DNA of 64,000 nt, taken from positions 9,255 to 73,254 of the forward strand of contig JBHGNT010000124.1 of NCBI GenBank assembly GCA_043228905.1, given 5' to 3'. Below, in pieces: positions 7,473 through 46,139 of the stretch; the first letter of the stretch is position 1, and every line of letters starts with the position of its first letter. Below the pieces are notes generated by a model. That model was given only the letters and a program-made list of their open reading frames with translations, searched no databases and was not told the origin of the DNA. The stretch comes from Azolla caroliniana (taxonomy: Eukaryota; Plantae; Polypodiophyta). The translations under genes were made by a program, and so were the position numbers.

Positions 7473-8232
7473 TGTCGTAGTGTATTTCGTACACTACATG
7501 AAAAACTTATAAAGTAACGTTTTAGTAAATGTGAAGAAATAGAAGAAAATGTCAAAATAAATAATACATGCATAGGGCAAGATTCAAACCTTGCACCTCC
7601 ATGTTAATAATGTAATGTCTTACCATTGCACTAACATTTCATTAGTGTTAAAAAGTAGATGTTCCACATAGAAAGGTTAATTCACCTAGGATAAACTTTA
7701 GTTAAAAGAAAACGCATGCTAAAAGAAAAAGCTACGCATGCACATCTACCGTGCATAAACGTTATAGTTGATAAAAAATGCACAAGTTAGAAAAAGCATG
7801 ATCACTTTAGATAAAGCATATAGTCTATCTATAGAAAAAGCATATAGTCTATCTATAGGAAAAGCATGGAGTCTATAGTTAGAGGGAAAAAAAAAAACAT
7901 GGATTACTAAGACTCCCTCATCACTACATAAGGATGGGAGCACAATGTAAAAGGTGTGTGAAATATTTGGGAAATTGGATATATTTCCTAAAACACCAAT
8001 TAATAAACTATACTCGTGGGATTCACGAGATTTCTATATCTTTCTCTATCAATCTAAATACATATTCTTACATAAATATTAATCAATAAAATACATTATA
8101 CTTGTGGGATTCACAAGTTTCTACTATTCTATTCATAATTAAAATCGCCTCAAATTCTTGGTCTTCCTAGTCCAAAACCCCAGCGATTCCCACCCGACTC
8201 ACGCAAACGATCTGGCACTTAAATGCATGACA
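7473..8232 (+). mobile_element. Solo LTR of the 11399-14916 family
   Basis: Starts TGTCGTAGTGTATTT and ends GCATGACA; colinear with 11399-12125. Flanks CCAT/CTGT are compatible with a deaminated CCGT TSD. Confidence 0.85.
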
Positions 8233-8496
8233 CTGTGCCTCTTTGGGCCCTTGTACATGCGAAGAGAAGGGCGTTAAGGATGGGTGCATGCCTTCCTACT
8301 CTGCAAGCGGTCACCGGTCGCATCCGGAGAGGAACCGGAACCGGCCGGCAAGGTCTGACCCGGACACCATCCGGATCCAAACAGGCCGGCTACACAACAA
8401 ACTCAAGAGGATTCGATCCTCCGGCAACTCCACTCCTGGTCCATGACCCCGGTGGTCCCGCCTGGATCCGACATGCAAGTGCGGATCTCCGCGACA
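8233..8496 (+). mobile_element. 3' part of an LTR related to the 4238 LTR end; truncates the Tcn1-like chromodomain
   Basis: Ends ...GGATCTCCGCGACA; its reverse complement resembles 4238-4290 (TGTCGCGG...GGATCC(T)AGGCGGGACC). Abuts the YLVDWLGYSPS chromodomain fragment. Confidence 0.55.
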
Positions 8497-11400
8497 TCGC
8501 TTGGACTATAGCCTAGCCAATCAACCAAATAGTAGAGCTTGTTGCGAACAATCTTGGAATTGAGGATGGCAACAACTTCATACTTCGGTCTTACTTCAAG
8601 CTCGATGGGGGGTGATGGTGGTGGTGTAATACAATCTGTAATAATGTTATCTTGATAGGGTTCGAGAAGAGAACTATGAAAAATCGGATGTAACCGTAGT
8701 TGCAGAGGTACATCAAGACGAAAAGTGATATCATTAAATTTTCCAATAATACAGAAAGGACCTAATTGTCAATAATCCAATTTATCGCATGGTCGAGTAG
8801 TCTTGATGTGTTGTCGTAATAGCCATACCCGATTTCCAATGTCAAAATAGGATGGAAGCCAATGATGATCCGCATAAGCCTTATGTGTTTGTTGAGGTTG
8901 ATTTAAATGGGTAGATAGGTCTGCCTGTATCTTTCATAGCCTCTCCAAATGATCCTCTGCACGAGGATTTGTGGGTAACTCCAGAGTTTCGAACACACAC
9001 CATCAAGAATGATAGCCTGTATAAGCATAAAATGATGTAACCCTAGTCGATGAGTGGATAGAGTTATTATAAGCAAATTCGGCAAAGTGGAGAATATCCG
9101 CCCAATCATCTTGTTGATAGCTTAGAAAACACCGAAGATATTGTACCAACGTTTGATTTGTTCGTTCTGCTTGTCTATATGTTTGAGGGTGATAGACGGA
9201 GGAGAGGTTACAAGTGACCTTGAGCATTTTGAAGAGATGCTTCCAGAATTTCGAGATGAATTGAGGTCCACGGTCACTAATGATACTTTCCAGGGCCATG
9301 ATGCCCCAATACCTCACGCATGAAAATTTCTACGGTTTCTTCACTAATGGTTGCCTTAGTACAAGGCATGAAATGTGCCATCTTAGTATATCAATCTACT
9401 ATTGTAAAGATTGCATCGAATCCCTTTGAAATTGGAATATGTGTGATAAAATCTAGAGAAATGGACTGCCACGGCTTGCTTGGAATTGGTAATGGTTCCA
9501 ATAAACCATATAGATGATGTCTTGACATCTTTGCTCTGCAACATGTATCACATGTCTGAACATAGTCTTCGACAAATCGTCGCATATGAGGCCACAAAAA
9601 TGGTTGTTGTACTAAATCCAACGTTTTAGTACTACCAAAATCTCAAGTTGTATATGTGTCATGACAATTTTGGACTACCTGAAGGCAACAAGAACCATTG
9701 GAAACATACAAGATTTTCTTAAAGAATAGTAATTCATCATGACATTCGAATTGTCAATTGTCCGTACCTAGTTGTTGGGATTGTGAACAGATTGCCCGCG
9801 AGGGATCAATTTGCACTAGAATGGCTTGAGCGAAAGCATCTATCTTCAAGTATTCACGTATGGTCTCAATAACGCGGGAATCCAATGGAGTGTCAAAAAC
9901 CAACGTTGCTTGCAGTCATGTTGGTCCTAGATTGACTTGCTTTTGATTATCGAATGTTGGATCACCAAGACAAGGTGCCAGATACGAGCACCACGATAAT
10001 GCATCTGGAAATAGGCAAGGTTTTTGTGATCACTGAATACGGTGACTTGATGAGAAGATCTGGAAATGCCTCCAGTGTGTAAAAGAGTCCACTATTGTTA
10101 GTAGCTCATTGTCATGTATCTCGCAGTTGATTCCGGCCACATTAAACTTGCGCAAGTGGAAAGCCACATGATGTAGTTTTTCATCATCGCCTTGTTGGGA
10201 TAGAATGCTACCAATGGCAAAATCCGACGCGTTTGCCTCCATGATGAACGATTTTTTCAGATCAACATAAGCTAGAATATGATCTAATGTAAATGCTTTC
10301 CTAAGACTTACAAAAGTTGTTTATGCTTCCTTAGACCAAACAAATGACTACCCCTACTTGGTAAGCTATGTGAGAGGCAAAATAAGCTTTGAGTAGTCCT
10401 GTATAAACTTGCGGTAGAAATTTGCGAAGCCTAAAAAAAATTGCACATCTCGCAACGAACAAGGAGTCTACCACCTTACCATAGTTCTGACCTTAGCTGG
10501 ATCCATAGAGATGCCTTCCGAGGAGATGACATAGCCTAGAAATTCCACCTGGTTGCACTCAAAACTACATTTTTCCAGTTTTGCATAAAGACCATGTTCT
10601 CAAATTCGTTTTAGTACTTATAGTACATGAGAATCATGCTCTTCTTGAGTCTTTGAATAAACTAGTAGATCATCCAAATAGTTGATCAAACAAATATCCA
10701 AGAGATCTCGGAATATATCATTTGCCATGTGCTGGAAGATTGATGGCGCATTGGTGAGACCGAATGACATAATTGTATACTCGAAGTGCCCATATCAGGT
10801 GCGAAAAGCGGTCTTCCATTCATCTCCTGGTCGGATCCGTAAAAGGTTATATGTGCCTTGTAAGTCGATCTTTGTGAAGAGACGATAATCCACGACAAGA
10901 CGAAGTGATCCATTTTTTTTCTTGACAAAGAGAATGGGTGCGCCGGCTAGAGATTCCGAATTTCGAATGAACCCATTTGCCAAGTTCTCCTCTATGTAGG
11001 CTCGAAGGACTTCTAGCTCGGTTGGTGACAAGTTGTAGATCCGTTCCCATGGTGGCTCTTTTCCTAGTTGTAAATTGTTGAGAGACAAGCTCAACATCGG
11101 CCGGATCGGTTGAAGAAGCCTAGGACCAGATTGGTTGGGACCGATCGGTTAAGCCGAGTGCGTAAACCAGGAGGTCGTTAGGAAAGATATTCCGTGAGGA
11201 ATATATTTGGGAGTTAGTGTAGTTAGTGTAGGAGCTCTTAAAGAGCATTGAAGTACGGTCAGTACTTCAGTCAGTCCTTCGAGGACTTGTATAAAAGTGT
11301 TCATGGAACACACATATGTATAGAGTAGTGAATTGAGATCTTTTGTTGAATATAGTTCTTGTATTTTCTCTCTCTCACTCTCTCTGTCTCTCCCGCGTTG

Positions 11401-11499
11401 TCGTAGTGTATTTTGTACACTACGTGAAAAACGTATATAGTATTAGATTCAATAAAAAATGAAGAAATAGAAGAAAATAGCAAAATAAATGGAACATGT

Positions 11500-11568
11500 A
11501 TAGGGCAAGATTCGAACCTTGCACCTCCATGTTAATAATGTAATGTCTTACCATTACACTAGCATTTC
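11500..11568 (-). promoter_or_regulatory. tRNA-like Pol III module in LTR U3 (copies also at ~14291-14359 and ~7572-7640)
   Basis: A box TAGTGTAATGG (11561-11551), B box GGTTCGAATCT (11518-11508), 32-nt spacing, T-arm stem GCAAG/CTTGC, downstream T4 runs. Confidence 0.7.
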
Positions 11569-12163
11569 ATTAGTGTTAAAGCATAGATGTCCCACATAGA
11601 AAGGTAAATTCACGCTAGGATAAACATTAGAAAAACGCATAACAAAAGAAAAAGCTACACATACACATCTAGCGTGCATGATAAAAAACGCACAAGTTAG
11701 AAAAAGCATGATCACTTTAGATAAAGCATATAGTCTATCTATAGGAAAAGCATGGGGTCTATAGTTAGAGAAAAAGCATGGATTACTAAGACTTCCTCAT
11801 CACTACATAAGGATGGGAAGCACAATGTAATTGTGTGTGAAAAATATTTGGAAACTGGATATGTTTCTAAAAAACACCAATTAATAAACTATACTCGTGG
11901 GATTCACGAGAATTCTATATCATTCTCTTTCAACCGAAGTTTATATTCTTATATTCATATTGATTAATCTAATACAATACACTCGTGGGATTCACGAGTT
12001 TGCTATAACTCTTTCTTACAACATATTTATATTCTTATTAGCCTTAAAACTCTCCTCTTCCTAGTCCAAAACCCCAGCGGTTCCCACCCGACTCACGCAA
12101 CGATCCGAAGCCGAAAGGCACGACACAGTTGGTGAACCCGACGTGAAGGCGGGTGGCAAGGAG

Positions 12164-14188
12164 ATGGAGAATCAACAAGAGGCAATGAGCATAACGATGA
12201 TGATGATGTTCGAGCGGATGCTACAAGAACAACGAGTGATGTCGGAGATCACGGGGGCAGTAAAGCGGCTCGTACAACAAAACGGACAATTCAACGGAAA
12301 CGATGTGTCACGCTATCTACGTGACTACAAGGCGGAGATGATACGATGTGGGATACCGGAAGGATTGCAAGTGACATCCTTCAATCGGGTGGCCACGGAT
12401 GAGCTACAAGAGAGAATCCACAAGATACGGCAACAAAACTCGACATGGGGGTCATTCGAAGAAGCTTTACGAGAGGCATATGATTACAAGAGATCGAAGG
12501 GACAAGATCGGCGAGAATTCGACGAATGGGTGGCATCGAAGAAGACCCACCGAAGTGCAACACAAGCATTCCTAGAGTTCGAGCATCGTTTTGCTCGACT
12601 CTCGAAGCGGGAACAACGATTGGTGGGAGAGGATAAAGTCCTAATGTTCGTAAAATCGATCGATCGAAAAGAAAGGATGGACATTCGGATCGAACTCGAA
12701 GATGATGACGGTGCGAACGGCCTTACCGAGGATTGGGCCAAAGTCGAAAGGGTATGCCGAAGACATGATGAAAGGAAGCTGAGAATCTCGTCAACAACGA
12801 CATGGCCCATGAAGGATGGTCGATTGAGGAAAAACGATGAAGCCAATATGAAGGCCGAAATACAACATGATGGTACCACGGGAGAAAGAGTGGAACAAGA
12901 CACCCACTCGTCTTGTGAAAGAACGATGGCGAAGGATAAGGCCGATAATGCAAGTGTAGAAGGAAATTTCGGGATACAAGTGCCCGAGACATCGGGTCAA
13001 AAAGGGGTAAGCATAATAGATGTTTGCATAATTGATGCAGATAAAGAGTGTGAAGCGGATGTGATTAAGGAGGTAGCCACAAAAGACGAAATCGAATCGG
13101 AGGTGGCTATGGACGAATCAATGGCGGATTGCCATATCGAGACTTCCCCACCACTGATTCCAAAGACTCCTGCGGTTGCGATCGAAAGGCAACGTGAGAC
13201 CGAAGAGACGGAAGGTGGCGGAGAGAAAACGAATGTCGAAGCCGACGAATACGATGAAGAGATAGCCGAGAAGAATGCTAAGGGTGAAACTACGAAAGAA
13301 GGTAATACCGAGGATTCATGCCAACAATATCTAGAGACTTCGGCGGTTGTGTCCGAGAACCAACGTGAGACCGGAGAGACGGGAGATGGCGGCGAGGAAG
13401 GTAAAGTCGAAAGTCGGTTCGGATGGAAAATGATCCATCCGAAATTCCAATCTAAAAGAAAGTGCGACAATGCGGAGGTCGGGTCTACGACGGGAGAAGC
13501 GCGTAATACAGAGCACGCTCTACGGCGAATAAAGAAACGTGTGTTATGGCGAATAAAGAAGCACGCGCTACGGCGAGAAAAGAAGCATGCATTACAACCA
13601 CACGAGGACCGAACAACGAGCACATATCGGAGGACCTACGTGGCGAACAACGGAAAGAAGTGCCGAAAGTCGAACCGGACAAGGCAGGTGAAAACGAAGA
13701 AAAGAAAGCAAATCCGGACGAAAAGAAAAGAAAAGAAACCGACCCGAAAGAGCACTGAATCGGTAAAAACCGATCAACCGAGTCCGGATCGACCGAATAC
13801 AAATCGGAAAGGAAGCCGAACTAAACGAAAGACGATCCGACGAGACCGAATCGGAAGTAAGCTAATCCGACTAAACCGAAAATCCGAAAAGAAGTCGAGA
13901 TTGATGAAGAAAAGAAAGAGGGCAAGAAAAGATACTACCGCGGATGACAAGGACCAAGCGGGCCATGCAAAAAGCGAACGAAGACTATGGTGGATCGGAT
14001 GTCGACAATGGTTCGAGTGGAAAGAATGGATGTGCTCCAAATGGAGAGACAAAGTCAACATAACAAGAGAAGTCGAGGGTACTACGAGCCGGCAACGAAA
14101 CCAATCGGGTAGAGACCGGACGGAGGAGACTAACAAACACCAACAACTTCGGCACATACCGGAGGATGTGCGGGTTTGGAGGGGGTGA
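12164..14188 (+). CDS. Gag capsid-like N-terminus fused to long acidic then basic low-complexity tail (674 aa)
   Basis: First ~200 aa align with the gag at 16241 (FNGNDVSRYLRDY vs FEGINLTRFLKIY; GLTEDW in both). Frame is open from just after the PBS to the PPT. Confidence 0.8.
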   Translation: MENQQEAMSITMMMMFERMLQEQRVMSEITGAVKRLVQQNGQFNGNDVSRYLRDYKAEMIRCGIPEGLQVTSFNRVATDELQERIHKIRQQNSTWGSFEEALREAYDYKRSKGQDRREFDEWVASKKTHRSATQAFLEFEHRFARLSKREQRLVGEDKVLMFVKSIDRKERMDIRIELEDDDGANGLTEDWAKVERVCRRHDERKLRISSTTTWPMKDGRLRKNDEANMKAEIQHDGTTGERVEQDTHSSCERTMAKDKADNASVEGNFGIQVPETSGQKGVSIIDVCIIDADKECEADVIKEVATKDEIESEVAMDESMADCHIETSPPLIPKTPAVAIERQRETEETEGGGEKTNVEADEYDEEIAEKNAKGETTKEGNTEDSCQQYLETSAVVSENQRETGETGDGGEEGKVESRFGWKMIHPKFQSKRKCDNAEVGSTTGEARNTEHALRRIKKRVLWRIKKHALRREKKHALQPHEDRTTSTYRRTYVANNGKKCRKSNRTRQVKTKKRKQIRTKRKEKKPTRKSTESVKTDQPSPDRPNTNRKGSRTKRKTIRRDRIGSKLIRLNRKSEKKSRLMKKRKRARKDTTADDKDQAGHAKSERRLWWIGCRQWFEWKEWMCSKWRDKVNITREVEGTTSRQRNQSGRDRTEETNKHQQLRHIPEDVRVWRG

Positions 14189-15354
14189 GTGTCGTAGTGT
14201 ATTTTGTACACTACGTGAAAAACGTATATAGTATTAGATTCAATAAAAAATGAAGAAATAGAAGAAAATAGCAAAATAAATGGAACATGTATAGGGCAAG
14301 ATTCGAACCTTGCACCTCCATGTTAATAATGTAATGTCTTACCATTACACTAGCATTTCATTAGTGTTAAAGCATAGATGTCCCACATAGAAAGGTAAAT
14401 TCACGCTAGGATAAACATTAGAAAAACGCATAACAAAAGAAAAAGCTACACATACACATCTAGCGTGCATGATAAAAAACGCACAAGTTAGAAAAAGCAT
14501 GATCACTTTAGATAAAGCATATAGTCTATCTATAGGAAAAGCATGGGGTCTATAGTTAGAGAAAAAGCATGGATTACTAAGACTTCCTCATCACTACATA
14601 AGGATGGGAAGCACAATGTAATTGTGTGTGAAAAATATTTGGAAACTGGATATGTTTCTAAAAAACACCAATTAATAAACTATACTCGTGGGATTCACGA
14701 GAATTCTATATCATTCTCTTTCAACCGAAGTTTATATTCTTATATTCATATTGATTAATCTAATACAATACACTCGTGGGATTCACGAGTTTGCTATAAC
14801 TCTTTCTTACAACATATTTATATTCTTATTAGCCTTAAAACTCTCCTCTTCCTAGTCCAAAACCCCAGCGGTTCCCACCCGACTCACGCAACGATCCGAA
14901 GCCGAAAGGCACGACAGCGTATACTACGTATACTGCGTAAGCTCAAGCTCTCCATTAAACCTGAGTTTTCTTCCTTCTGTTCGGTCTTCATACTTGCTTC
15001 CGCACGTTACTTTTTACATGGTATCAGAGCGCAAGGGTTGAGAACCTCTCTGCAGCCGACACAGCTTGACGAAGAAGAACAAGAACAATGGATAGAGGCA
15101 TGGCGAGCTCGCTTCCAACAGAGAAGCTCGACAGAACCAACTACGCGTCTTGGTCTTACAAGATGCACCAGTACCTGCTCGGGCACGACTATTGGAGTTA
15201 TGTCAAAGGAGCTAATGACGCGGCACCCGAATCGACACATAGAGACTTCCCGTCATGGGAGCAATCGGTGAGCAGGGTATTATACTGCTTCGCGTTGTCG
15301 TGAAGAATGTGCTTCACGATATAAAAATGAGCTTAAATGTTGTATTTAATAATA

Positions 15355-15558
15355 TTTGAGAGACTTGAACCCACATCCTTATATACGATGTACAATGTAC
15401 ATACCACTAGGCTAAGCTATTTATTTGTAAAAGTGTGTAATAAATGTGCTTCATGATATAAGAATGAAGCTATATATTGTATTAAGTAAAATTGAGGAAC
15501 TTGAACCCTCAACCTTGTATACCAAGCACCAAGCATACACCACTAAGCTAGGTTAGTT
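15355..15558 (-). promoter_or_regulatory. Two tandem tRNA-like Pol III modules in LTR U3 (one copy retained at ~21917-21979)
   Basis: A boxes TAGCCTAGTGG (15414-15404) and TAGCTTAGTGG (15550-15540); B boxes GGTTCAAGTCT (15371-15361) and GGTTCAAGTTC (15507-15497); both 32-nt spacing; T-arm GAGGG-TTCAAGT-TCCTC. Confidence 0.72.
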
Positions 15559-16240
15559 ATTTTAGAATGCATTTTCATCATTATAATTATCTCATATCTA
15601 TTTTCATACATAGCCATCATTCATCACATGCAATGCATGTGCGCCAAATGGCGATCATGCATTACATGTAACTCATGCATTGCATGCATGCCATGCTCCC
15701 ATACATTACCATATGCATGGCAACACTTATATAAAGAGGGGAAAGGGAAAACAAGGAGGGGAATCAAGAGAAAGTTAGAGAAATAAGATAATCACAAAAA
15801 CAAACAAGTTAGCTTGTTGGTGAAGAGGCTCGTGTTTCCAAGTTGGAGTCAAGAGTTCGAATCAAGGGTCGGTAGAGAATGTGTTCAGTTTGCGATCAAG
15901 GATTGTAAAGTTGGTAAAATATTGTCTTTTTAATATACATCATGTTTATATCAAATACTCTTGCTTCTTGATTCATACTTTGTCTCAATCTTCTTTCTTG
16001 AAGCATACATTGTCTCTATCTTTTATCTATGCTCATCTCTCTCTCTCACACACACACACACACATTACTCGTAACTCTTCTTCTTGCTATCCTTAACCAC
16101 TCTATCATCACCATACAAGCCTTATTAAAAGTTAAGTTTCTTCAACTCCCCTTAACCTTAGTCCCCGCGACTTTGCCGTACGAACCACAACTACCCCGAC
16201 ACATTTGGTGAACCCAACGTGAAGGCGGCGACGAGGAGAA

Positions 16241-19200
16241 ATGGAGGAGCAAATGAGGCTTATGTGTACAATGATGGAACGAGTGATGCGGGAACAAGGG
16301 ATGATGGCAAGCATCGACAAAGCCGTCGACAATATTCTCGCACGAGTAGGAATCTTCGAAGGTATAAATTTAACAAGATTTCTGAAGATTTATAATGAAG
16401 AAATGCTTAAACGCGGTGTCGACGAAGCTACAAAAATTAATAGCTTTAGTCGAGTCGCTGCGATTGGGCTACAAGAGAGGATCCAAGATCTTCAAAGGGA
16501 GAATCAGACATGGACAACATTCGAAAGGGCATTACTCAATGAATACAACCTCAACGATATGTCAAGGATGACAAGGCGAGCTTTCATGGATTGGGTAGAG
16601 TCTAATAAACATTTAAGTGTTTTGGAAGTATTAAAAGAGTTTTCTGAAAGATTTGAGCAACTAAATGTTAGAGATAGAAATATAATAGTGCCAGATAAAG
16701 TAATATTGTTTCTACAAGCTACTAATATTAAAGACAGGAAGGACTTGGGAATGCTTTTAGAAGATCAGAATAGTCCAAGTGGACTTACCGAAGATTGGGA
16801 GGAGGTGAAAAGGGCGTGCGCCCATTTCTGCAAAAGAAAGTTATGGTTTATGGAGTTGCCCGACAGAAATGATGAAGAAACGGGGAACGAGTCGGGAGAA
16901 AAGAAAGTAGAAGAATCACTCTTACACGAATTAGTGAAAGGCATGAAAGACTTGTCGATCAAAGTGACGAAGCTAGAATCGGGACAAAGCTCGACTTCAT
17001 CAAGGCAGGGAGGTGGAATGGTTCGAAGGTGTATGTGGTGTGATAGTATCGACCACCAGAAGAAAGATTGTCAAGAGCATAGGGATGCTCTTAATCATAA
17101 TAAAATCTACTATCAAGATGGCAAGATTCACTCAACTGAGACTCGACAACCACTTCAACTCAACTTCGGGTGAGGAGGAATGAAAAGGCTAATGGAAGAT
17201 GCCGAGAGAGAAACGACTCAAGCGATACAATCCGTGGCAACCTTAGGATTGTGCGTAGAAGACTCATATGGTGGATCTGGCTTTTGGCAAGATGTGATGG
17301 ATTATGCAAGAAAAGGGAAGGTTCGAGTGGATGAATTAAAAAGAGCGGGAGATGAAATACGAAACTTCACTGGATGGAATGATCCAGTAGACGCGCTATC
17401 AGCATTCGCCCAAGTGAGTGCACAAGATGTGCTAGTGGAAGAGAAGCGGAAGAGAGCTGAGGAAGCTGATCCGACAAAGAGACATGAGACACGAGAACAA
17501 AAGAGAAGGGAGATGGAAAAGGGTGCTATTGAGCCGAAGGAAGCTGATAAAGTAAAAGGAAAGACAGGCCCATCTTTCAAGCTTGCCTCAGACATAGAAA
17601 CAACGACGGATATAAAAAAGGTACTAGAAACAAGAATATTAAATAGTAAGGTAGAATTTACTTTAAGAGAAGTGTTGGGTATAGCAAAGAAAGAATTTCA
17701 TGAAGTTATCATAGATATTATTAGAAGGAAGAGACAGGTGACGGAGGAAATTACGGGAGGGTGTGCAGCAACACTCCAAGATTTGTATGGTGGCACCATC
17801 AATGCTGCAAGTGTAAAAAACCAGAATGATGTTGGCGTCCATGAAGGGGATAGGAGTCACTATACAAGGGACCATTGGGCTTGAGCAACAACGGAGGCAC
17901 CTGCAAAAATTGGGGAGCAGCAAATTCCATGTATTGCTTTGATCGATCATGGATCAGAGATTAACATGATGTCATCGGAATTTTACGCTCGAGGACGATG
18001 GCCGATCGATAAGAATCATGGGTGGAAAATAAGAGTTGCCACAGAAACTATGGAGGATCTATTCGGAGCATGTCCTAGTGTGAAGGTAACAATTGGTGAT
18101 GTCTCGGTGAATCAAAATTTCTTTGTGCAGGATCGATCAACCTACCCCATCATCCTTGGCCAGCCCTACATCACCGCAGTGAGGATGGAAACAAAGGTTA
18201 TTGATGATGGTTCGGCTTTCGCGAGAATCAAGAGTCAAGATGGAAGAAAGACTGTCCAATTCTTAACCGTGAGGCCCAACCATGAAAGAAACAAAGAATG
18301 CTTGAGGGAACATCCAATTCAAGAGATGGATGTAGAGTTTTCCCAGGATTTTTAGATAGGGCTTTTACAGGTAGGGGCTGTGATAGCCCGAGCATAAAAG
18401 AAAACCCCATAAATAATAATGTAAATAAAGATATTCCTTGTACAATCTCATCTAATGGTGCTACTTTTATACTAAATGTAAATAATAATAAAATACAAAA
18501 TGCTTTCGAGTACTTTAAGTGTTCTGGATTAATAGATGATGATGAAGAAATTCAGGATATGTTTGAAGAATTAAGTTTTGAAGATACAATAACTCATTTG
18601 GAAGCAATGGAAGAAGACAACGAAATCCAAGTTCCTGTCCATTCAATCAAGATGTATGAGGTCATTGAAGAAGTTGCTCGAAAGGATCATGAAGCACATG
18701 TACCAACAAAGTACAAGACAGTGGAGAAGAAGGTTCGTCCTATTGCTGCTCCACTTCCAGGGGATAGTGAAAAGGCAATCAAAGAAGCAGCCACAGAGCC
18801 AATGATCAGAGACCCACGAAAGGTAGGACATGTGTTTACTCCGGAAACAATACAAGGGATGAAAATAGGAGGGGGTGACTTCCTATTACCCGCTGAAGAA
18901 AAGCAGTTCAGGGAGATGTTAAAAAGGCATGGAAAGGCGTTCGCATTCCAACCGGAGGAAATAGGGTGTGTGGATCCAGAAATTGTGGAGCCCATGGTTA
19001 TATTCACTATCCCTCATATTCCATGGAACTTTAAGCCAATACCCATGCCTAGGGCTAGAATCCCTCAACTATTAGAACTTTTGAAAGAAAAGATAAGGAT
19101 GGGTATCTTGGAACCATCAAACGCTCCTTACTCGAGTCGATGGTTCACCGTGTTAAAGAAAGATGGGCGACTCCGATTTATCCAAGATATGCAACCCGTG

Positions 19201-21811
19201 AATAAGGTAACAATCCGAAACTCGGGAGTAGGGCCAATTGTGGATGAGTTTGCTGAGATGTTTGCAGGAAGAGCTATATATTCAATGGGAGACCTTTATT
19301 CCGGGTATGATCAATTTCAACTTGCTATCAAAAGTCGAGATATAACTTCTATCAAGACACCTATAGGGTTAGTACGGATGTGCACCTTGCCGCAAGGAGC
19401 GACCAACTCAATGGCGTATATGATGAATGGAATGAACAAGGTACTTCGTGATTTTATTCCTCATATTACAATGCCTTTTCTAGATGATGTTCCAATTAAG
19501 GGATGCAAGGAGGAAGAGAAGAACGAGGAATTGGACGAAAGTGGTTGCCGTCAATTCGTTGCTGATCATATCAAGGATTGTGAGAAGGTGCTATCAAGGA
19601 TGGAAGAAGTGCATTTGACCTTATCAGGGGCGAAGTCAATATTTGGGGCAAAAGAGATATTAATAGTTGGTCATATGTGTGGCCCGTATGGGAGAAAGCC
19701 ATCCCCAACCAAGGTCAATGCAATTCAAAATATGCAAGAGGAATGTACATCCATCTCAGAAGTACGAAGGTTTCTGGGGGTATGTGTTTTTTACTGTAAA
19801 TGGATTCCGCATTATGCCCATTTATCTGAACCTTTATATAGACTCCTAAGAAAAGGAGAGACATTTGAATGGAGTGAAGAGCATTCAGAGGCAATGAAGA
19901 AATTGAAGTACTACTTGGCACAAGCTCCACCATTAAAGCAACCAGACTACACCCGGCCCATATATCTCACAGTAGACTCTAGTCCCATTGGAATTGGATG
20001 GGTGATAAGCCAACAAGATAGGGAAGAAAGGTATCCAGTCCGATTCGGGGCAAAGGTTCTTAGTGGTCGACAAAGAAAATATGCACAGGTGAAGAGAGAG
20101 CTATGGGGGATAGTAACAGCTGTAAAGACAGACAAAGATTACTTAATTGGTGCTGAAGTAATAATAGAAACTGATTGTTTGCCTATTCTGGGTATCATAG
20201 CTAATTGTGATATTCCAGATCAAGCCATGTTAAGATGGTGTATCTATATTAGATCAATCAACCCTGAAGTTCAACATATCTCTGGGAATAGAAATGCAAT
20301 AGCAGATATGTTATCAAGAGGAAGAGGAGATTCCAGACTCGGACGATGAGGACAAAGAACAAACAGTCCTTACCACAAGCATTACTCGGGAAGGAGGAAT
20401 GCAGTTTCTAGAAGAAGAGTATGAAGAAGAATTCAAGGAAATAGGGAAATACCTACAAACCCCTGACAAGTACAAAGGTCGATCTGGAAAAGAGTTCGCA
20501 CAGTTTCGCAAGAAAGCCCATAAGTTCTTCCTACATGAAGGATATCTATGGCGACATCCGAAAACCCGCAAAGAAACCAAGACTGGAAACCCGCAAAGAG
20601 TAATAGGTTCTGAAGGGCAAAGAAAGGAGATAATCAGAGAGTTGCATGACAAAGAATGGGCTGGTCATCGAGGAGTGTGGGCCACTTTCAGTAAGATTAA
20701 AGAATGATTTTGGTGGCCTCGATACTATGAGCAAATAAAAAAGTATGTGGAAACTTGTCCCACTTGTCAATATTATTCAAATGTAAAATTTTGTGATGAA
20801 TTACACCCAACATACTCACCGGGGGTGCATTACAAGTGGATGATAGATTTGGTAACAATGCCACTTGGAGTAGGACAAAAGAGATACTTGGTTCTTGCTA
20901 GAGAAGATCTAACAAATCAAGTGGAAGGTCGTTCATTGCGAACAAAAGGGACATTAGGAGTATGTCAATTCATCTTGGAGGACATTGTTTGTAGATATGG
21001 ATGTATCGGGAAGATAGTGGCAGATAGGGGAGAACTCAATTCTGCGGAAGCTCAAGATTTTTTCGACAAAATAGGAATTCGGCTTTCTTTGACAACAGCG
21101 TACAATCCAGAAGCTAATGGAAAGGTAGAAAGGGGACATGGGCCAATAGTCAAAGCTTTGGCAAAGGCATGTAGAGGACGGGTTAGTGATTGGCCAAAAA
21201 CCTTACCCTATGCACTATGGGCTGATAGGACAACTCACAACACTGTTACTGGATATATGCCTGCAGAATTAATCACAGGACAGAAGCCAATAATGCCAAT
21301 TGAAGAAAAGATAACTACATGGGTTGTGTTGCCTTGGGAATCGGAAATGAGTAGGGAAGATTTACTTGCAGTTCGAATACGACAACTTCAATCAAGGATA
21401 GAAGACATAGAAAAAGCAGCTACTAGATTGAAAGAGGCAAGAATCAAGAATAAGGACAGATTTGACAAGATGAAAAGAATACGACCAAGAAAGGTGCAAG
21501 AGGGAGATTGGGTATTAGTATATGATAATAGCCTAGATAATCAATACAGTACTATTCGGAAGTTTGCAAAAAGATGGTTTGGACCTTATGAAGTTAGGAA
21601 AATAACAAATAAAGCCACATATTTCCTCAATGAATTAGATGGGACAGAAATTCGTATCCCAATTGCAGGAAAAAGGATTAAAATATTTAAAAGGAGGGAG
21701 TCATTAGAGCCTCAATTTTATGAAGAAGTAGAAGAACTAAAAGAATCGGAAGAAGTGTTGGATGAACTCTGCACAACCAATGTGCAAGTTCAGAGGGGGT
21801 GGGTGTCGTGA
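16241..21811 (+). pseudogene. Gypsy gag-protease and RT-RNase H-integrase, lightly disrupted
   Basis: Gag with CMWCDSIDHQKKDC knuckle, protease IDHGSEIN, RT (DLYSGYDQ, LPQGATNS, FLDD), RNase H (VDSSPIGIG, ETDC), integrase (H...GHRG...CPTC; DRGE; YNPEANGKVER; GPY). TGA stops at 17171, 17882, 20705 and a frameshift near 20330. No chromodomain. Confidence 0.93.
18346..18410 (+). promoter_or_regulatory. Probable programmed -1 ribosomal frameshift signal (slippery site plus pseudoknot)
   Basis: G GAT TTT at 18346-18352 just before the TAG of the protease frame, 6-nt spacer, stem 18359-18370/18378-18389 (11 of 12 pairs), loop GGGG complementary to CCCC 18405-18408. Pol continues in the -1 frame. 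Confidence 0.8.
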
Positions 21812-27771: not shown

Positions 27772-28340
27772 TGTTAGAATCATAACTGGCCACAATTGAT
27801 TCCCGTTTCGTAGATTCACGTGTAGAAATGAACAATCTAACAGAAAACCGAGAAAAACAAAAAACAACACATATTTTAACATGGAAACCCGAGTAGGGAA
27901 AAACCATGTGGAGTCCACAAACTCCAAAACAAATCACTATGATGAAGAGGAGTACAATGAGGAACTCGGAGGCAATGACCTTGAGATCTCCTTCGTCTAC
28001 AAACAACTATGGAGTTACACAAGCTTCCACTCTCTCTCTCTCTCTCACTCTCTCTCTCTCCACACACACACTTATGCAGGCAACAACCTGTTCTAACTAT
28101 CTTACAACAAAACTCATCATAATACCCATAAAGTTTGCCCTAGTTGCTTATATACTAATGCAACTTTATGGCTATTTACAAACATAGCCCACATGGGACT
28201 CATTTTGACTGTTTACAAATGTAGTCTCTCGAGTTGGCTACATCCTTGTTTTCTGTTTCGACCTCAGCCTATCAGCCTTGATCGAGTTACTCATCAACTC
28301 AATTCTTTTCTTCCCATCTGGAGGAACATATTTCCCAATA
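27772..28340 (-). mobile_element. Solo LTR (569 bp) inserted in the Tcn1-like pol
   Basis: TGTTAG at 27772, CCCAATA at 28340 (CA to TA), TSD GATAT/GATAC; removing it restores LLEKY/RHYENVFDK. Confidence 0.75.
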
Positions 28341-29772
28341 GATACTTCTCTAGAAGTTGAACTATGGATTCCTCTTTAGTGGTGCTGGAAAGTCTTACTA
28401 ATACTACTAATACAAACATTAATTCCTTGCGTCCTTCGTCACACAATTGATGTAGTGAAATGGTTGAAACCTTATGACTAGATTCTCAAGGTTGTCGATA
28501 TCGGATTTCTCTTGTTCTCCAATTTATGTTTGGATTGTGTAACTCGAACCATGGTAACCCCAAAACAATGGGATGTTCTGGACTACTAATTATATTGAAT
28601 GATACTACACATGCCAAATTATATAGGACAACACTAATTGGCTCTGACACTTCTACGATATTTCCGGAAGCAATGGGACGACCATCAATGACTACTACAG
28701 AGGCTGGACAAGGGAGTTTTCTTAAGGATATATGATGAGCTTGGGCAAAATTCTTATCCATAAAGCAAGAATTAGCTCCGTAATCTAGGAGTGCTAAGAC
28801 ATGTATTGGAGGAGTACTTTTAGTACTACTTGTTACTTGAGCTAGGAAGACATTGATAACTTGCTTAAAGAGAATGGAACCACTAATGAGTTACATAGAT
28901 CTAGGGTTGTCCAACCAAACAGCTCCTATTTTGGTTGGACTTAGTCATTTAACTTTCCTTCTAGTTGACTAAGGACTTCAAATTTGTTTGATAGGCTTGG
29001 GCTATTAGAACTGTCAACCACTTCTAATGAAATAGACTCTGGCATAATACTATTAGTACTAATGGCTATTTGATTTACCTGTCTTCTTGGCCTATGGGGA
29101 CAATTTACTGCAATTTGCCTCGGTCCATTGCAATAAAGACATAGTCAATTGTAATTGACATTCCGAACGTCGTTCGAAAAGTCTTTTACCGCAACGTACC
29201 GCTTGACTAATTGCCTCTGTGACTTTGGTTCTTCAAGAAAAGTCAGAAGTAAATCTTTGACATCATTTCGAAGGCCATATTGAAACTGCTCCATCAATGC
29301 TACATCATCCTAGGGAATATTGGCGGCGAGTAGACGGAAATCCACACCATAGGCTGAGGCTGGACAATCACCTTGACACAATCTTCGGATTTTATTGATT
29401 GTCGTCCTAATGCTATCGGTGTCCCCGAAACAGGCTTTAAACTCGCTAATAAATTCCTCTAAATTATTTAATAATGGAGATCTTTGTTCTAATAAAGGTG
29501 CGAGCCATGCTAAAGTTGGGCCACTAAGCAACGTGCGTACTAATCCATCTCATGATGCATCGTGAAGTATGCACTGAATTGTGATCGCGTTTCGTCAAAT
29601 TTTGTAGGAAGACTGATCTTGGGTTCTTTATGAATTCTTTCAAGTACTTGGTCCATGTTGTTGCAAGGAATCAGTTCAAACTATCAGGAATAGTATAAAG
29701 ACAGAGAGGGAATTAGTACTAGAGATGAGGATTAGTACTAAGAGGAAAAGAGGGTGCAACACTCTCGACAGA

Positions 29773-29808
<36 letters not shown>

Positions 29809-30019
29809 TGATAACAAACAATATATTATATGCAGAGAATATACAAGAATAGCTAGGAGACTTAAGATTGGCGTTGAACCGAATAGGTTCTCAATAATGC
29901 CATATGCCTCTTTTTATAGTAGGAGTACTCTTGACATTTCTAGAATATTCTAGAGAAATCTAGAATATCCATGGATTTCCTAAGTGAAATAATAAATGGA
30001 AATAATATTTTTTGTATTA

Positions 30020-30090
30020 CAATGTATAGCTTAATAGTAGGGCTTTAACCCATGTGACACAAGGTCATGGTTTAAATCCTTTTGAAACCA
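30020..30090 (+). promoter_or_regulatory. Degenerate tRNA-like module, antisense in the Tcn1-like 5' LTR
   Basis: A box TAGCTTAATAG (30027-30037), AAGGTCAT variable loop, B box GGTTTAAATCC (30069-30079), 31-nt spacing, ends ACCA. Confidence 0.55.
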
Positions 30091-30231
30091 TACCATGCTA
30101 TATCATGACATAGACCATTTTAGATACATCTTACATTCGTCGTTGAACCAAAATTTATATGGAAAGCTACACATATTTTGCCCACCCACATGCCTCTTAA
30201 AGTAATGATACCCAACCTTAAGGATGATATC

Positions 30232-30683
30232 TGTTGGCCAGTGCCGGTCAAAGTATGTCAGGTACAGGGGACAAGTAGGTTTCCGAAATATATTGATAAT
30301 ATTTAGTAAAGAATTTTTGTAGGAACGGGCGGATCCGGAAAAGGTGTACCGATCCGGATTTGGACCGGTTCATAGCCGATTGCCGGTTGGACACCGTTTT
30401 GTAACACAAAACTAGATGCCTATAAAAGGATCCGGATACTAATGTATTAAGGGATGGGATTTAATATAAGAAAGTTTTGTTATTATGGTGCATTTGTGTA
30501 TTCCGTTCTGTACTTATTGCCTTATCTTACATGTGTGATGTATGTGATTGTGAATCTGGATACCGGCCGGAAGTTTACCGGTTTAAGTTAAAGTGAGTAA
30601 GAATCCCTTTCCGTAACCACTCTTTGGTGAAGTGTTCTGAAAGGATACCCTGTGTTAGCGGCTAGTCCAACCCAGGATTAACA
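30232..30683 (+). mobile_element. Solo LTR (452 bp)
   Basis: TGTTGG...TTAACA, perfect TSD ATATC (30227-30231 and 30684-30688), TATAAAA at 30421; related to 4368-4829. Confidence 0.88.
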
Positions 30684-30689
30684 ATATCC

Positions 30690-36600: not shown

Positions 36601-38150
36601 TCACACAGAATCTCAGGCAATGTGGATTATGCTATGCAACGCCGGAGACTACTAAGCATGACCTCTGGTCTTGTCCCTTGGCTCAACAAGTATGGAATAA
36701 AGTTCTTTCTTTATTCCTAACAATCAATGTTGGTTGCTTGTTCTCATGGGGAGCAGCAGTGTGGGGAGTATTACACTCCAGCCTGATGTTGTATGAGGCA
36801 GATGATATGCAAGAGGCCATGACAGCATATAACAGAAGATTGATATCAGTTAGTCCGTTTCAACAACCTCGAAAGCAAATGCGATCTGTCGAGATCTAGA
36901 AAACTGTGACTACGATAACATTATGGGTATTATGGAAATGCAGATGCGGTCGACTTTACAATGCCTCAAAGCTTGGCATTCTAGAGGTATTGCTTGAGAT
37001 ATGGGAAACATTGTTGACAGTAGTTTGTGTGCAGTATAATAACATGGTTGGTTCTCCAGAATATATTCATAAAAGAAGGATGAAGCTTCTTCACTTACGG
37101 AGGAAGGTGCCTCTCTTTGTAATGACAAACCAAAGACCTCAATGGAATTATCATCTTCCATGGACCTTTTCTTGATATAAAACCAACATGTTAATGTATC
37201 ATTTAAGGCTCAACAACCCTATATAAGTTGTTTTTGTATGTACAAGTTTAGGTGTACATACATTACATTGTAAACCTACAAGCAGATAACTTTCACTTGT
37301 ACTTTCTCAATGTTTTAATACTATTGAAGAAAATCTTTCATGGAAAAAAAAAGTACACCTTACTACCATCTAGAATCATTGCCCTATTACGTTCATCAAG
37401 GATTGTACAAACAATAGCTTGAGATGACTTTCCCTCTAGTTGCCTTTTGTCAACCATATGTGCGGCATATACAATAATATCTCGCATAGCAAACTTATCT
37501 TCAAAGAATTTCGTAATATTCTCTCCCAAATGATAATGCATTTCTGTTTTATTCTCTTGCATACCTCTAATGACAATATTATTCTTTCTTCTTTCGATTT
37601 CATTTTGCTCCTTTGCATCTAACACATCCATGGTATTAGAATGCCTTTGCATGATTTTCGGTGTTTCATTTAAGAGAACACATTTCCCCTTTGTCTTGAT
37701 CACATCTTCCCTCCCTTCAATTGTAGATTTTATTTCGGCATTTGCCTTCACCAAAACATCTTTTCCTGTTTCAAGACTCAACATTTTTCTTTCTATTTCA
37801 AGCATTCGATTATCTTGCATTTGAATAGTCATGTTCTTCATTACATGTAGTTCTTCATGCAAAGCTTTAATCTCTAACTTTTGCATTTCCATTGTATGTT
37901 GAAGAGTTAATTCTCTCTCCTTATAACCATACATTTCGCTTTGCATGTGCCTCACTGTCTTTTGCAATGAGATATACATAGCTGCCATCTTTTCCATTGA
38001 CAAAGTATGCATTTGATTGTTTGGACTTTCAATCACGTCATCATTGACTTTTACTCCTCTTGGATCAAATACGTCGTTAATGAGGATTGAACCTATAACC
38101 TCACATCTACAATACATCATGCCTAACCATTTCAATATGAGAGACAAAGA
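30690..38150 (-). mobile_element. Old, internally deleted non-LTR retrotransposon (coiled-coil/RRM-type ORF1 plus APE remnant), split by the L1
   Basis: ORF 37338-38147 is coiled-coil then EQNEIERRKNNIVIRG; it continues past the L1 TSD at 31155 into LKVMFWNCRG...IIFL...DHKPL, the start and end motifs of an AP endonuclease. Confidence 0.7.
31156..37350 (+). mobile_element. Full-length L1-clade LINE, inactivated
   Basis: 16-bp TSD AAGTACACCTTACTAC (31140-31155 and 37351-37366), short poly(A); ORF1 ~31205-32827 with CFRCFGFGHLAKYC; ORF2 32871-37175 with APE (SWNVQGL, GGDFN, LDRFY, SDHDP), RT (DFEKAYD, VRQGCPLA, FADD) and C-terminal zinc finger (CGLC...H...CP). Multiple stops. Confidence 0.95.
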
Positions 38151-38240
38151 AAAAAGAAATTAAAACTAAGAGACCAATTTTGACCTATGGGACCAAAGTA
38201 TACATGTGGTCTTGATATGTGTCTCCTTCCTAAGAAGGGG

Positions 38241-39150
38241 TGTTCATACACTGAAGCACGTGAAGTATAAAATCAAGAGGTGAAAGGTGGGTTTTGAACC
38301 CAAGACACAATGCTTGTAGTGTTAACAACTTACCAGTAGTGAGAGAGAGAGAGAGAGAGAAAGAGAGATTCAATAAGTTATAATATGGCACAACAACTCT
38401 CAACTTCATCTTGGACTAGGTTATAACTTCAGTTTATATATGAACTGAATTAGGACAACTGTCCTTTATAATATTTACATATATGGCCTAAACCTAGTCA
38501 TTCTACTAGGATAGTGTTAATATGTCCATTATAAGTCCGACAATCCCCCGCAATGGGCATATTCAACAAAAATATGTAATCAAAAGAAAAAAGTACAAAT
38601 GTATACAAACGGCTATCAACTGAAAAACAGAAGTTAGATAGGTTGTGCCAATTGTCAAAAACCAATTTCCAGAAGTGTTGAAGCCAATTGTCCAAAATCG
38701 TCCTTATGTCCAACTTAATCAGACTGATTTTTCTTGACACCCATTTGGTGCAGAAGAGATTGGAATTGGTCTACCCGAAGGCACTTGGTCATCTTATCTA
38801 CTACATTATTGTTCGAGCTCTACAATCCTCTATTGCGTCTTCTCCAACTGTTGTGCTGCTTTTATGGCTTTCCATTGGTTCTTGTTTTTTCTCCACCATA
38901 TCCTTGGCACCAATGGTAATCAAGGCGAGCTCCATGTGCACTTCAACCAGTGTTGTGTTGGGGGCGCAGCTCTTTTAGTCGACTCTTCAGGCGCCAACAT
39001 TCCTCTTTTAGCCGACTCTAGTGAAAGGGCCTTCGTCGTCACTCTCGGTCGTCTTCTCCATACCGTTATCGAAAGTTGAATCTTTGTATCAGTTTTGCAA
39101 TCTCCATTTGCTGTAGATTGTCTCCATTACCATTGCCCCAAACTCTAAAC
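38241..39150 (-). mobile_element. Internally deleted Copia remnant with 3' LTR
   Basis: Minus strand PPT GCGGGGGA (38551-38544) then LTR TGTCGG...GAACA (38542-38241); upstream peptides HMELALITIGAKDMV (gag-like) and DKMTKCLRVDQF (RNase H end-like). Confidence 0.5.
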
Positions 39151-39289
39151 CCTAAAGTCTGTATTACATCCATTTTGGCTTATTGCTCTTGCCCTGTTTC
39201 CCTGTAATTGAATCTACAAAACATGAATCCTGAGACGTTCACACACACAAGACGAATGAAGCCATAACCAAAGGGCATGAACAAGCTCT

Positions 39290-39593
39290 AAGCTCGGGCC
39301 ATGATTATTTCCAAGATTCCAAGAAATCTCTCTAATGTGAGAATCATAGAGTTGGACATAGGAGCTCTTGTTGTTAGGAACTAAATAATGCCTAGTGCCT
39401 CCTTTTATAGTGTTCTCAATAATAGTCTTAAAGCTTTTAGAATGGTCCAAAGAAATCTGGAATATACATTAATTTCCTATAATAAAACGTAAATGAAAAT
39501 AATATTTTATGTATTACAATAGATGATATAATGGTCAAGAGCTCAACCCATATAACATAAGGTCATGGGTTCGAGTTTTGCCATATCATGACA
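39290..39593 (-). mobile_element. LTR related to the Tcn1-like LTR 29682-30110, with antisense tRNA-like module at 39518-39583
   Basis: Starts TGTCATGATAT on minus strand; 39388-39580 aligns with 29898-30080. A box TGATATAATGG (39524-39534), AAGGTCATGGGTTCGAG, 33-nt spacing. Left end approximate. Confidence 0.65.
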
Positions 39594-45817: not shown

Positions 45818-45919
45818 TTCTTGGGGTACAGAGAGAAAGAATGGAGGATTCCCAAGAAGCCAAAGAAAAAGAAGCCGATAAGCAGAGATGCAGGCAAAGG
45901 GGTAAGTAATCTCTGCAAG

Positions 45920-45920
45920 A

Positions 45921-45955
<35 letters not shown>

Positions 45956-46090
45956 AGAGGGAGAGGGAGAAGAAACAGTAATTTTAATTGATTGAAGCAG
46001 AGAAAGTGATGGGCTCTCCCCAAGTTTATGTGTGTTGGGCCCAATGTGTGTGTGTGTATTCAAATCTCGAAGAGAAAGAAAGGGATGGGG

Positions 46091-46139
<49 letters not shown>

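What the first reader, a model, noticed from the sequence alone, without database searches (positions are those of the whole stretch)
7572..39583. Antisense tRNA-like Pol III modules at the start of U3 in three dissimilar LTR families
Seen: eight modules (7572, 11500, 14291, 15355, 15494, 21917, 30020, 39518), all within ~270 bp of the LTR 5' end and all antisense to their element. The five I measured have an A box (TRGYNNARTGG-like) and B box (GGTTCRANYY-like) 31-33 nt apart, the spacing of intronless tRNA genes. Several keep T-arm and anticodon-arm pairing and have a T4 run shortly downstream, while acceptor stems are lost. The surrounding LTR sequences of the three families do not align, and one family is a chromovirus while two are tRNA-Trp-primed non-chromoviruses. 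Known: Cassandra TRIMs carry 5S-derived Pol III promoters in their LTRs, and TFIIIC-bound B boxes act as chromatin barriers in yeasts. Inference: a recurrent tRNA-mimic system in LTRs, acting as an insulator against silencing or producing a short regulatory RNA. I do not know of a description of this arrangement.
Basis: partly seen in the sequence, partly recalled or inferred. Interest (0 to 1): 0.85.

Follow-up and report, generated by a model that had tools for sequence, protein, structure and literature searches.

The report
tRNA-promoter cassettes in retrotransposon LTRs
Many full-length jumping genes of this plant group carry, near the front of their terminal repeats, a roughly 54-base remnant of a tRNA gene that no longer folds as a tRNA but keeps the letters matching the known docking site of the tRNA-gene transcription factor TFIIIC, so it likely serves as a borrowed protein-binding site that would help keep the element's own promoter open.

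Summary
All eight A/B-box modules are present (9 hits at <=2 mismatches; shuffles 0.06), but they amount to about five sequences in three lineages. In 80 related Phygy-like loci, 15 of 42 LTR clusters carry a module in the first 400 nt (shuffled 0.01; integrase 0 of 39). Many of these elements have open gag and pol frames, and a second chromovirus LTR has one too. tRNA stems pair no better than controls. The A box, B box, 31-33-nt spacing and an unsought AGGT at tRNA positions 44-47 (a published TFIIIC-binding determinant) are kept. Within lineages, AGGT varies in 2 of 28 columns against 72 of 182 elsewhere between the boxes. So this is most likely a selected DNA site, not a tRNA mimic. Antisense is not a rule (10 antisense, 5 sense lineages), and most families lack the module. 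Best reading (inferred): a TFIIIC/TFIIIB landing pad upstream of the LTR TATA box that opens or shields chromatin. Closest known: Helenus/Cassandra TRIMs, which are non-autonomous. The scan earlier noted antisense tRNA relics inside Gypsy elements of other genomes. There are no binding, RNA or chromatin data.

The parts
7473..8232 (+). Solo LTR of family 1 (Phygy-like); flanks CCAT/CTGT read as a CpG-decayed 4-bp target duplication (inference)
7580..7633 (-). A box-32 nt-B box module, antisense, 107 nt from LTR edge
11399..14916 (+). Family 1 element: identical 727-bp LTRs (11399-12125, 14190-14916), tRNA-Trp-type PBS, GCGT target duplication, one 707-aa open frame without Pfam hit and no pol (internally deleted copy)
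11508..11561 (-). Module, 0 mismatches, AGGT at tRNA positions 44-47, T4 run 22 nt after the B box
14299..14352 (-). Identical module in the 3' LTR
15296..22652 (+). Family 2 element (Phygy-like): LTRs 15296-16201 and 21804-22652, tRNA-Trp-type PBS, protease-RT-RNaseH-integrase with stops, GCGT target duplication
15361..15414 (-). Module in the outer tandem unit of the 5' LTR (this unit is missing from the 3' LTR; two units also in relative L001)
15497..15550 (-). Module, 176 nt upstream of the TATA-like box
15727..15736 (+). TATA-like box of the family 2 LTR (Pol II promoter, inferred)
15810..15864 (+). Weaker sense A/B pair downstream of the TATA box, without AGGT (also 22233-22287; homologous class in L001, L019, L038, L050)
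21920..21973 (-). Module in the family 2 3' LTR, identical to 15497
8406..8768 (-). SH3/chromodomain end of the chromovirus whose 5' LTR holds the 30027 module; the element is split by a Copia (11076-27688, TAAAT target duplication)
29313..29549 (-). gag fragment of that chromovirus
29910..29919 (-). TATA-like box of the family 3 LTR, 107 nt from the module
30027..30079 (+). Module antisense to the chromovirus 5' LTR (edge at 30110); weakest of the eight, spacing 31, AGGT shifted by one
39524..39578 (+). Module 15 nt from the edge (39593) of a minus-strand LTR that shares about 190 nt of U3 with the family 3 LTR (72%); element class not shown; no T4 run inside the LTR
38083..38137 (-).

Best explanation
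The module is a tRNA-derived A box/AGGT/B box sequence that LTRs keep under apparent selection as DNA, likely as a docking site for host TFIIIC (and, through the A box and AT-rich flank, likely TFIIIB), which would hold the U3 region open or shield the element's own Pol II promoter from surrounding heterochromatin. Shown: tRNA-gene geometry; location between the LTR edge and the TATA box; presence in full-length elements with open gag/pol of two Gypsy lineages; constraint on exactly the positions published as TFIIIC determinants; loss of stems; either orientation; tandem duplication of whole modules or of the AGGT+B-box part. Inferred: origin by repeated capture of tRNA genes or tRNA-SINE heads and spread by U3 exchange between families; factor binding; short (about 90-110 nt) Pol III by-product RNAs where a T run follows; the chromatin benefit.
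For: Enrichment: 15 of 42 LTR clusters against 0.01 in shuffled U3, 0-1 at five other spacings, and 0 of 39 integrase blocks. Unsought motif: A44 92%, G45 94%, G46 100%, T47 89% in 36 modules; 87% identity between 18 sequence clusters whose free positions are 31% identical; within 7 lineages 2 of 28 columns vary against 72 of 182 other inter-box columns (Fisher p=5e-4), and G45/G46 vary in 0 of 14 against 52 of 86 G/C-holding arm columns. PMC11724288 (passages) reports a TFIIIC base contact at 47, a 5-fold binding effect of G45A, altered transcription for changes at +44 to +47, and an A-box requirement for TFIIIB loading. Box-masked homology searches found 34 hits (some the same site twice), all with boxes intact at <=3 mismatches. 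Stems at control level: acceptor 99/252, D 70/144, anticodon 81/180, outer T 50/108. Flanks follow the module's own direction: 79% AT upstream; T4 in 21 of 31 U3 modules against A4 in 3, including 5 of 5 sense lineages; these are the plant Pol III flank features (PMC13578239 passages). Extra AGGT+B-box copies in L019 and L078, and double modules in L001, L019, L038, L045. In 7 of 8 antisense lineages at least one member has its A box 146-196 nt from a TATA-like box. TFIIIB/TFIIIC barriers are established in yeast (PMC9540200 passage).
Against: There is no direct evidence of binding, transcription or chromatin effect. 27 of 42 clusters, including close relatives with open frames (L002, L005), lack the module, so it is dispensable. 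Conservation of the A box and of T runs fits a transcribed unit as well as a pure DNA site. Only 3 of 10 antisense lineage representatives have T4 at +8 to +45. The TATA spacing has no proper control, reaches 241-261 nt in part of family 1, and no TATA match was found in the window's family 1 LTR. A and B boxes were the search criterion, so only the AGGT and box-masked tests are non-circular; lineages and columns are not independent. The loci are collapsed metagenome contigs and may be chimeric (e.g. L006, L033). The review passages seen give no plant example of a tDNA/TFIIIC barrier.
Confidence: 0.5

Rival explanations
1. The module is kept as a true Pol III gene and the act or product of transcription matters: a short unstructured RNA, or outward/antisense transcription that tunes silencing or copy number.
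For: Complete promoter anatomy (A box, B box, AT-rich upstream, oriented T runs). The A box matters for TFIIIB loading more than for TFIIIC binding. A divergent tRNA-like unit of Leishmania is itself transcribed (PMC4950102 abstract). Antisense is the commoner direction (13 of 15 clusters).
Against: The RNA body is unconstrained (31% identity between clusters, 19 different anticodon triplets in 36 rows, no stem signal). By lineage the orientation bias is not significant (10:5, p=0.30). Some modules lack a terminator inside the LTR (39524, L052).
Confidence: 0.22
2. Passenger: heads of decayed tRNA-derived SINEs or tRNA genes fell into AT-rich U3 regions many times, and the box/AGGT pattern was fixed during their earlier life as SINEs, not in the LTR.
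For: Patchy distribution (at least 5-7 changes on the integrase tree), both orientations, variable position; a tRNA-headed SINE-like relic exists outside LTRs (47067-47160, 75% like L079); a ninth module is unassigned.
Against: Constraint persists within lineages that already share LTR flanks. No target duplications above swapped controls (2 of 15 against 0-3). No shared body beyond the B box between lineages and no A-tail. None in integrase blocks. Repeated duplication of the module.
Confidence: 0.14
3. Helenus-like promoter: the module is, or descends from, a TRIMp3-type LTR promoter that makes the element's or a satellite TRIM's template RNA.
For: Same conserved features as Helenus (boxes kept, tRNA non-functional); a plant Helenus is known from Selaginella. 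Five lineages are sense.
Against: Host elements have 5.5-5.9-kb internal regions with open gag/pol; most modules point away from the element; sense modules are followed by T4 within 14-35 nt and by a separate TATA box; Kojima argues that autonomous elements must use Pol II.
Confidence: 0.08
4. Integration decoy or landing pad: TFIIIC/TFIIIB on the LTR attracts (or diverts) Pol III-targeting integrases, as for Ty3 or TRE5-A.
For: Pol III-factor targeting by retrotransposons is well known (search listings); the window is heavily nested.
Against: The Phygy-like insertions here follow an NCGN target and none of the window's nested insertions lies at a module's predicted start site.
Confidence: 0.06

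Closest known systems
Helenus TRIMs / TRIMp3 (Kojima 2024, PMC10886601; read parts 1-4 of 6 plus passages, no supplements)
   Same: tRNA-derived sequence inside LTRs, conservation centred on boxes A and B, non-functional tRNA, probable repeated origin from SINE2 heads, a lycophyte example
   Different: Helenus is non-autonomous (311-1263 bp) and the boxes are proposed to drive the element's own RNA. Here the hosts are 7-kb elements with open gag/pol and their own TATA box, the module is optional and mostly points outward. The paper notes that 'not a few' Repbase LTRs hold tRNA-like sequence but analyses only TRIMs; the passages I saw do not state orientation.
Cassandra and Ajax TRIMs (bioRxiv 10.1101/2023.07.14.548913, abstract and outline; PMC10886601)
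   Same: Pol III internal promoter captured in an LTR and kept by selection
   Different: 5S type-1 promoter that transcribes the short element itself; non-autonomous
tDNA/TFIIIC chromatin barriers and ETC sites (PMC9540200 and PMC11724288 passages)
   Same: B box plus upstream 44-47 determinant; function would be DNA-level and orientation-tolerant
   Different: Host loci in yeast and animals. ETC sites are B-box-centred (recalled), whereas these keep an A box at tRNA spacing and ride on mobile elements; no barrier activity shown here.
Divergent tRNA-like A/B boxes upstream of trypanosomatid U2 snRNA genes (PMC4950102, abstract and outline)
   Same: A non-functional tRNA-like unit whose A and B boxes act as upstream elements for a neighbouring transcription unit and which yields a ~109-nt RNA
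   Different: The neighbour there is a Pol III gene; here it would be a Pol II LTR promoter
Phygy non-chromovirus and Tcn1 chromovirus clades (Neumann 2019, PMC6317226 passages)
   Same: Host elements: NCGN 4-bp target, short internal region filled by gag-pol, no chromodomain (families 1, 2); chromodomain-bearing element (family 3)
   Different: No tRNA-like LTR module is mentioned in the passages seen; clade placement here rests on features, not on a tree with reference sequences

Membership tests
Helenus (TRIMp3) | tRNA-derived sequence with boxes A and B inside the LTR | tested here: met
Helenus (TRIMp3) | Non-autonomous TRIM, about 0.3-1.3 kb, no coding capacity | tested here: not met
   Internal regions 5.5-5.9 kb with open gag (about 700 aa) and pol (1158-1241 aa) in L001, L006, L014, L021, L043, L045, L065; window elements 3.5 and 7.4 kb
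Helenus (TRIMp3) | Boxes positioned to transcribe the element's own RNA by Pol III | tested here: not met
   All eight window modules and 10 of 15 lineages point outward; sense ones are followed by T4 within 14-35 nt
Functional tRNA gene | Cloverleaf with paired acceptor, D, anticodon and T stems | tested here: not met
tRNA-derived SINE | Target-site duplication, shared body and 3' tail | tested here: not met
   TSD 2 of 15 vs 0-3 in swapped flanks; no shared sequence beyond the module between lineages; old TSDs could have decayed
Type 2 Pol III promoter | A box and B box at tRNA spacing, AT-rich upstream region, downstream T run | tested here: met
   T run only in part of the lineages
Type 2 Pol III promoter | TFIIIC/TFIIIB binding and Pol III transcription | not testable with these tools
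   no ChIP or raw RNA reads available
tDNA/ETC chromatin barrier | Blocks spread of silent chromatin in a B-box-dependent way | not testable with these tools
   needs reporter and methylation data
Phygy (host of families 1, 2) | NCGN target-site preference, no chromodomain, gag-pol filling the internal region | tested here: met
   GCGT duplications; Pfam order and no chromodomain; open frames in relatives
Phygy (host of families 1, 2) | Placement in the Phygy clade on RT-RH-INT trees | not tested
   no REXdb reference sequences at hand
Chromovirus (host of family 3) | Chromodomain at the integrase C-terminus | tested here: met
   PF00385 at window 8406-8768 (24.8 bits, just under the 25.1 cut-off, truncated) and L052 (38.1 bits)

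The most novel reading that the evidence does not exclude
Autonomous LTR retrotransposons of at least two Gypsy lineages have repeatedly built a minimal TFIIIC/TFIIIB site into U3, about one nucleosome upstream of their Pol II TATA box, and trade it between families, as a portable tDNA-type insulator or promoter opener against host silencing. This would be a transposon-borne Pol III-factor barrier in plants, dispersing such sites across the genome through every LTR and solo LTR.
Probability: 0.35. Interest if true: 0.82.

Novelty: new variant of a known kind. Interest (0 to 1): 0.62.

Why it matters
If the inferred role holds, it gives a concrete cis-acting anti-silencing device for autonomous plant retrotransposons and a way to test whether TFIIIC acts as a barrier in plants, where the review passages seen give no example. 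Sister families with and without the module make natural controls. Even without that role, the conservation pattern is an evolutionary footprint of TFIIIC recognition (including positions 44-47), and it warns that high-copy LTRs can seed very many A/B-box sites that tRNA and SINE annotation would miss or misclassify.

Tried and rejected
No whole genome was held, so no genome-wide LTR scan was possible. Rfam and ARAGORN found no tRNA at the modules (the ARAGORN call at 44562 lies in an unrelated tandem repeat). Viral contigs gave no integrase relatives and no module pattern. A plasmid search was empty. No RNA holder listed among sequencing runs. The contig overlay printed only 40 of 439 variant places, too few for a per-site rate test; a finer overlay of the family 1 module was not obtained, so copy-level conservation within one genome stays open. 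My first LTR-start regex failed on many loci and was replaced. RNA-structure reading rejected. Strict antisense rule rejected. Free-SINE reading with TSDs not supported. A by-eye likeness of the family 1 module to tRNA-His/Asn is recalled, untested and not used. An early guess that the host is Physcomitrium patens was dropped: no such protein was among the 120 listed integrase hits. Six of the ten paper searches bore on novelty; none listed a description of A/B-box modules in U3 of autonomous plant LTR elements. Subscription journals, Repbase entries and the Helenus supplements were not seen and may hold one.


Full report
Setting. The window is a nested retrotransposon island of a plant; the best named relatives of the integrase come from Riccia and Ceratopteris, and closer ones are unnamed. 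No whole genome was held. Family 1 is a solo LTR (7473-8232) plus an element at 11399-14916 with identical 727-bp LTRs. Family 2 spans 15296-22652 with protease, RT, RNase H and integrase. Both have a tRNA-Trp-type PBS (identity of the tRNA recalled) and GCGT target duplications, which matches the NCGN preference given for Phygy (PMC6317226 passages). Family 3 is the 5' LTR (edge 30110, minus strand) of a chromovirus: its gag and protease lie at 28.5-29.6 kb, and its chromodomain lies at 8406-8768 across a Copia insertion with a TAAAT duplication. The LTR at 39593 shares only about 190 nt of U3 with it (72%).

Observation. A scan for an 11-nt A box and an 11-nt B box found all eight modules, at 31-33 nt spacing with 0-2 mismatches, plus a ninth at 38083. 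One hundred dinucleotide shuffles in 500-nt blocks gave 0.06 hits (max 1) against 9, and five other spacings gave 0-2. The eight reduce to about five sequences in three lineages. None is a tRNA by ARAGORN or Rfam; two modules gave sub-threshold tRNA matches of 13.4 and 17.3 bits against a cut-off of 29. Seven other LTR-like stretches tested in the window have no module. On four public contig sets (four organism labels, three studies), the family 1 module bins are covered as deeply as the rest of that LTR. At the one B-box mismatch of the 15497 module, 99-100% of the depth in all four runs carries the box-consensus letter (only 40 of 439 variant rows were shown).

Relatives. An alignment of the integrase C-terminus fetched 80 of 230 confirmed metagenome loci. 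Of these, 71 had a recognisable 3' LTR start and 59 had at least 400 nt of LTR; the other 21 were left out of the count. The 59 form 42 clusters, of which 15 carry a module at <=2 mismatches in the first 400 nt: 13 antisense, 2 sense. Shuffled U3 gave 0.01, other spacings 0-1, and integrase blocks 0 of 39. Carriers include contigs with open gag (about 700 aa) and pol (1158-1241 aa) frames, so these are not TRIMs. L052 holds a second chromovirus (chromodomain 38 bits) with an antisense module 33 nt inside its 3' LTR. On an integrase tree of 44 rows the antisense label needs 7 changes (5 forced by well-supported branches). Alignments show U3 blocks shared by elements with different integrases and one mosaic LTR (L006), which points to U3 exchange as well as gain and loss; assembly chimeras cannot be excluded.

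What is conserved. From 61 scan hits I hand-picked 36, dropping 25 near-duplicates and weak hits (listed). In tRNA numbering, stems pair at control level: acceptor 99/252 (shuffle 37%), D 70/144 (53%), anticodon 81/180 (45%), outer T 50/108 (45%); there are 19 anticodon triplets. In contrast, positions 44-47, which were not in the search pattern, read A 92%, G 94%, G 100%, T 89%. The 36 fall into 18 sequence clusters that are 31% identical at free positions but 87% at 44-47; AGGT is exact in 14 of 18 (two of the four exceptions belong to a separate sense class behind the TATA box). Within seven lineages that share LTR flanks, 44-47 varies in 2 of 28 columns against 72 of 182 other inter-box columns (p=5e-4, columns not independent), and G45/G46 never vary, although G>A and C>T are the commonest changes. 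Box-masked BLAST found 34 hits (some repeated), all with intact boxes. The yeast TFIIIC structure paper reports a base contact at 47, a 5-fold binding effect of G45A and transcription changes for +44 to +47, and says the A box is needed for TFIIIB loading (PMC11724288 passages). The conserved set is thus the TFIIIC footprint, not a tRNA fold.

Flanks and position. Upstream DNA is 79% AT. T4 follows within +8 to +45 in 21 of 31 U3 modules (A4 in 3): 5 of 5 sense but only 3 of 10 antisense lineage representatives. These are the flank features of plant Pol III genes (PMC13578239 passages). By lineage, orientation is 10 antisense to 5 sense (p=0.30). Target duplications are not enriched (2 of 15; swapped 0-3), and no body is shared between lineages. 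Where a TATA-like box was found, AGGT-bearing modules lie between it and the LTR edge. In 7 of 8 antisense lineages some member has its A box 146-196 nt from the TATA-like box, but family 3 has 107-113, part of family 1 has 241-261, and the window's family 1 LTR gave no TATA match; this is suggestive only. Whole modules or AGGT+B-box pieces are duplicated in L001, L019, L038, L045, L078 and window family 2.

Mechanism. Shown: geometry, place, recurrence, constraint pattern, orientation tolerance, dispensability. Inferred: capture from tRNA genes or SINE heads (a SINE-like relic lies at 47067-47160), TFIIIC then TFIIIB binding, and a benefit to the element. Because the RNA body is free and both directions occur, a DNA-level role is favoured: opening U3 or limiting silencing spread toward the Pol II promoter, as TFIIIB/TFIIIC do in yeast (PMC9540200 passage). 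I put this at 0.5, a transcription-dependent role at 0.22, passenger at 0.14, Helenus-type promoter at 0.08 and integration decoy at 0.06. A constrained Pol III-type site of some function is thus about 0.85.

Comparison and novelty. Helenus TRIMs carry tRNA-like LTR sequence with conserved boxes, and that paper remarks that not a few Repbase LTRs do so, but it studies only non-autonomous elements and assigns the boxes the role of element promoter (PMC10886601, parts 1-4 of 6 and passages; supplements not read). Cassandra is the 5S analogue (abstract). Leishmania U2 uses a neighbouring tRNA-like A/B unit as upstream elements (abstract). PMC7466625 was seen as passages only and added nothing. 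Six searches listed no description of this arrangement in autonomous plant elements. Earlier notes of this scan report antisense tRNA relics in internal regions of Gypsy elements in other genomes (unchecked). Verdict: a real, selected feature; a new variant of a known kind; function unproven; interest 0.62.

Noticed in passing
window 15810-15864, 22233-22287; L001:786, L019:3674, L038:266 and 7001, L050:302: A second class of A/B pair, sense, downstream of the TATA box in R/U5, mostly without AGGT and, where measured, without a nearby T run, in several Phygy-like families
   Followed up: partly
window 14120-14190, 6575-6611; most of L001-L080: A conserved short hairpin (GGCACATACC...GGATGTGC type) lies just before the polypurine tract, and many of these LTRs begin with TGTC plus an 8-9-bp palindrome
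   Followed up: no
window 38240-38541: An LTR-like stretch with purine-tract-like runs at both ends on opposite strands and a weak module (good B box, poor A box) near 38290-38340(-)
   Followed up: no
window 47067-47160; L079:3524: A tRNA-headed SINE-like relic (75% identical over about 95 nt) beside microsatellites in both places; a candidate source class for the modules
   Followed up: partly
window 15296-15562 vs 21804-21985: The 5' LTR of family 2 has two module units and the 3' LTR one, apparently lost between short direct repeats; relative L001 has two
   Followed up: partly
L006:7016-7300: LTR mosaic: its own start followed by a start-plus-module block homologous to family 2, suggesting U3 exchange or an assembly chimera
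   Followed up: partly
window 11422-11429, 38267-38274: ACGTG (G-box/ABRE-like; label recalled) motifs close to LTR starts, upstream of modules
   Followed up: no
window 43265-46534 (-): A 1089-aa open frame built from 42- and 48-bp tandem repeats with no convincing Pfam match
   Followed up: no
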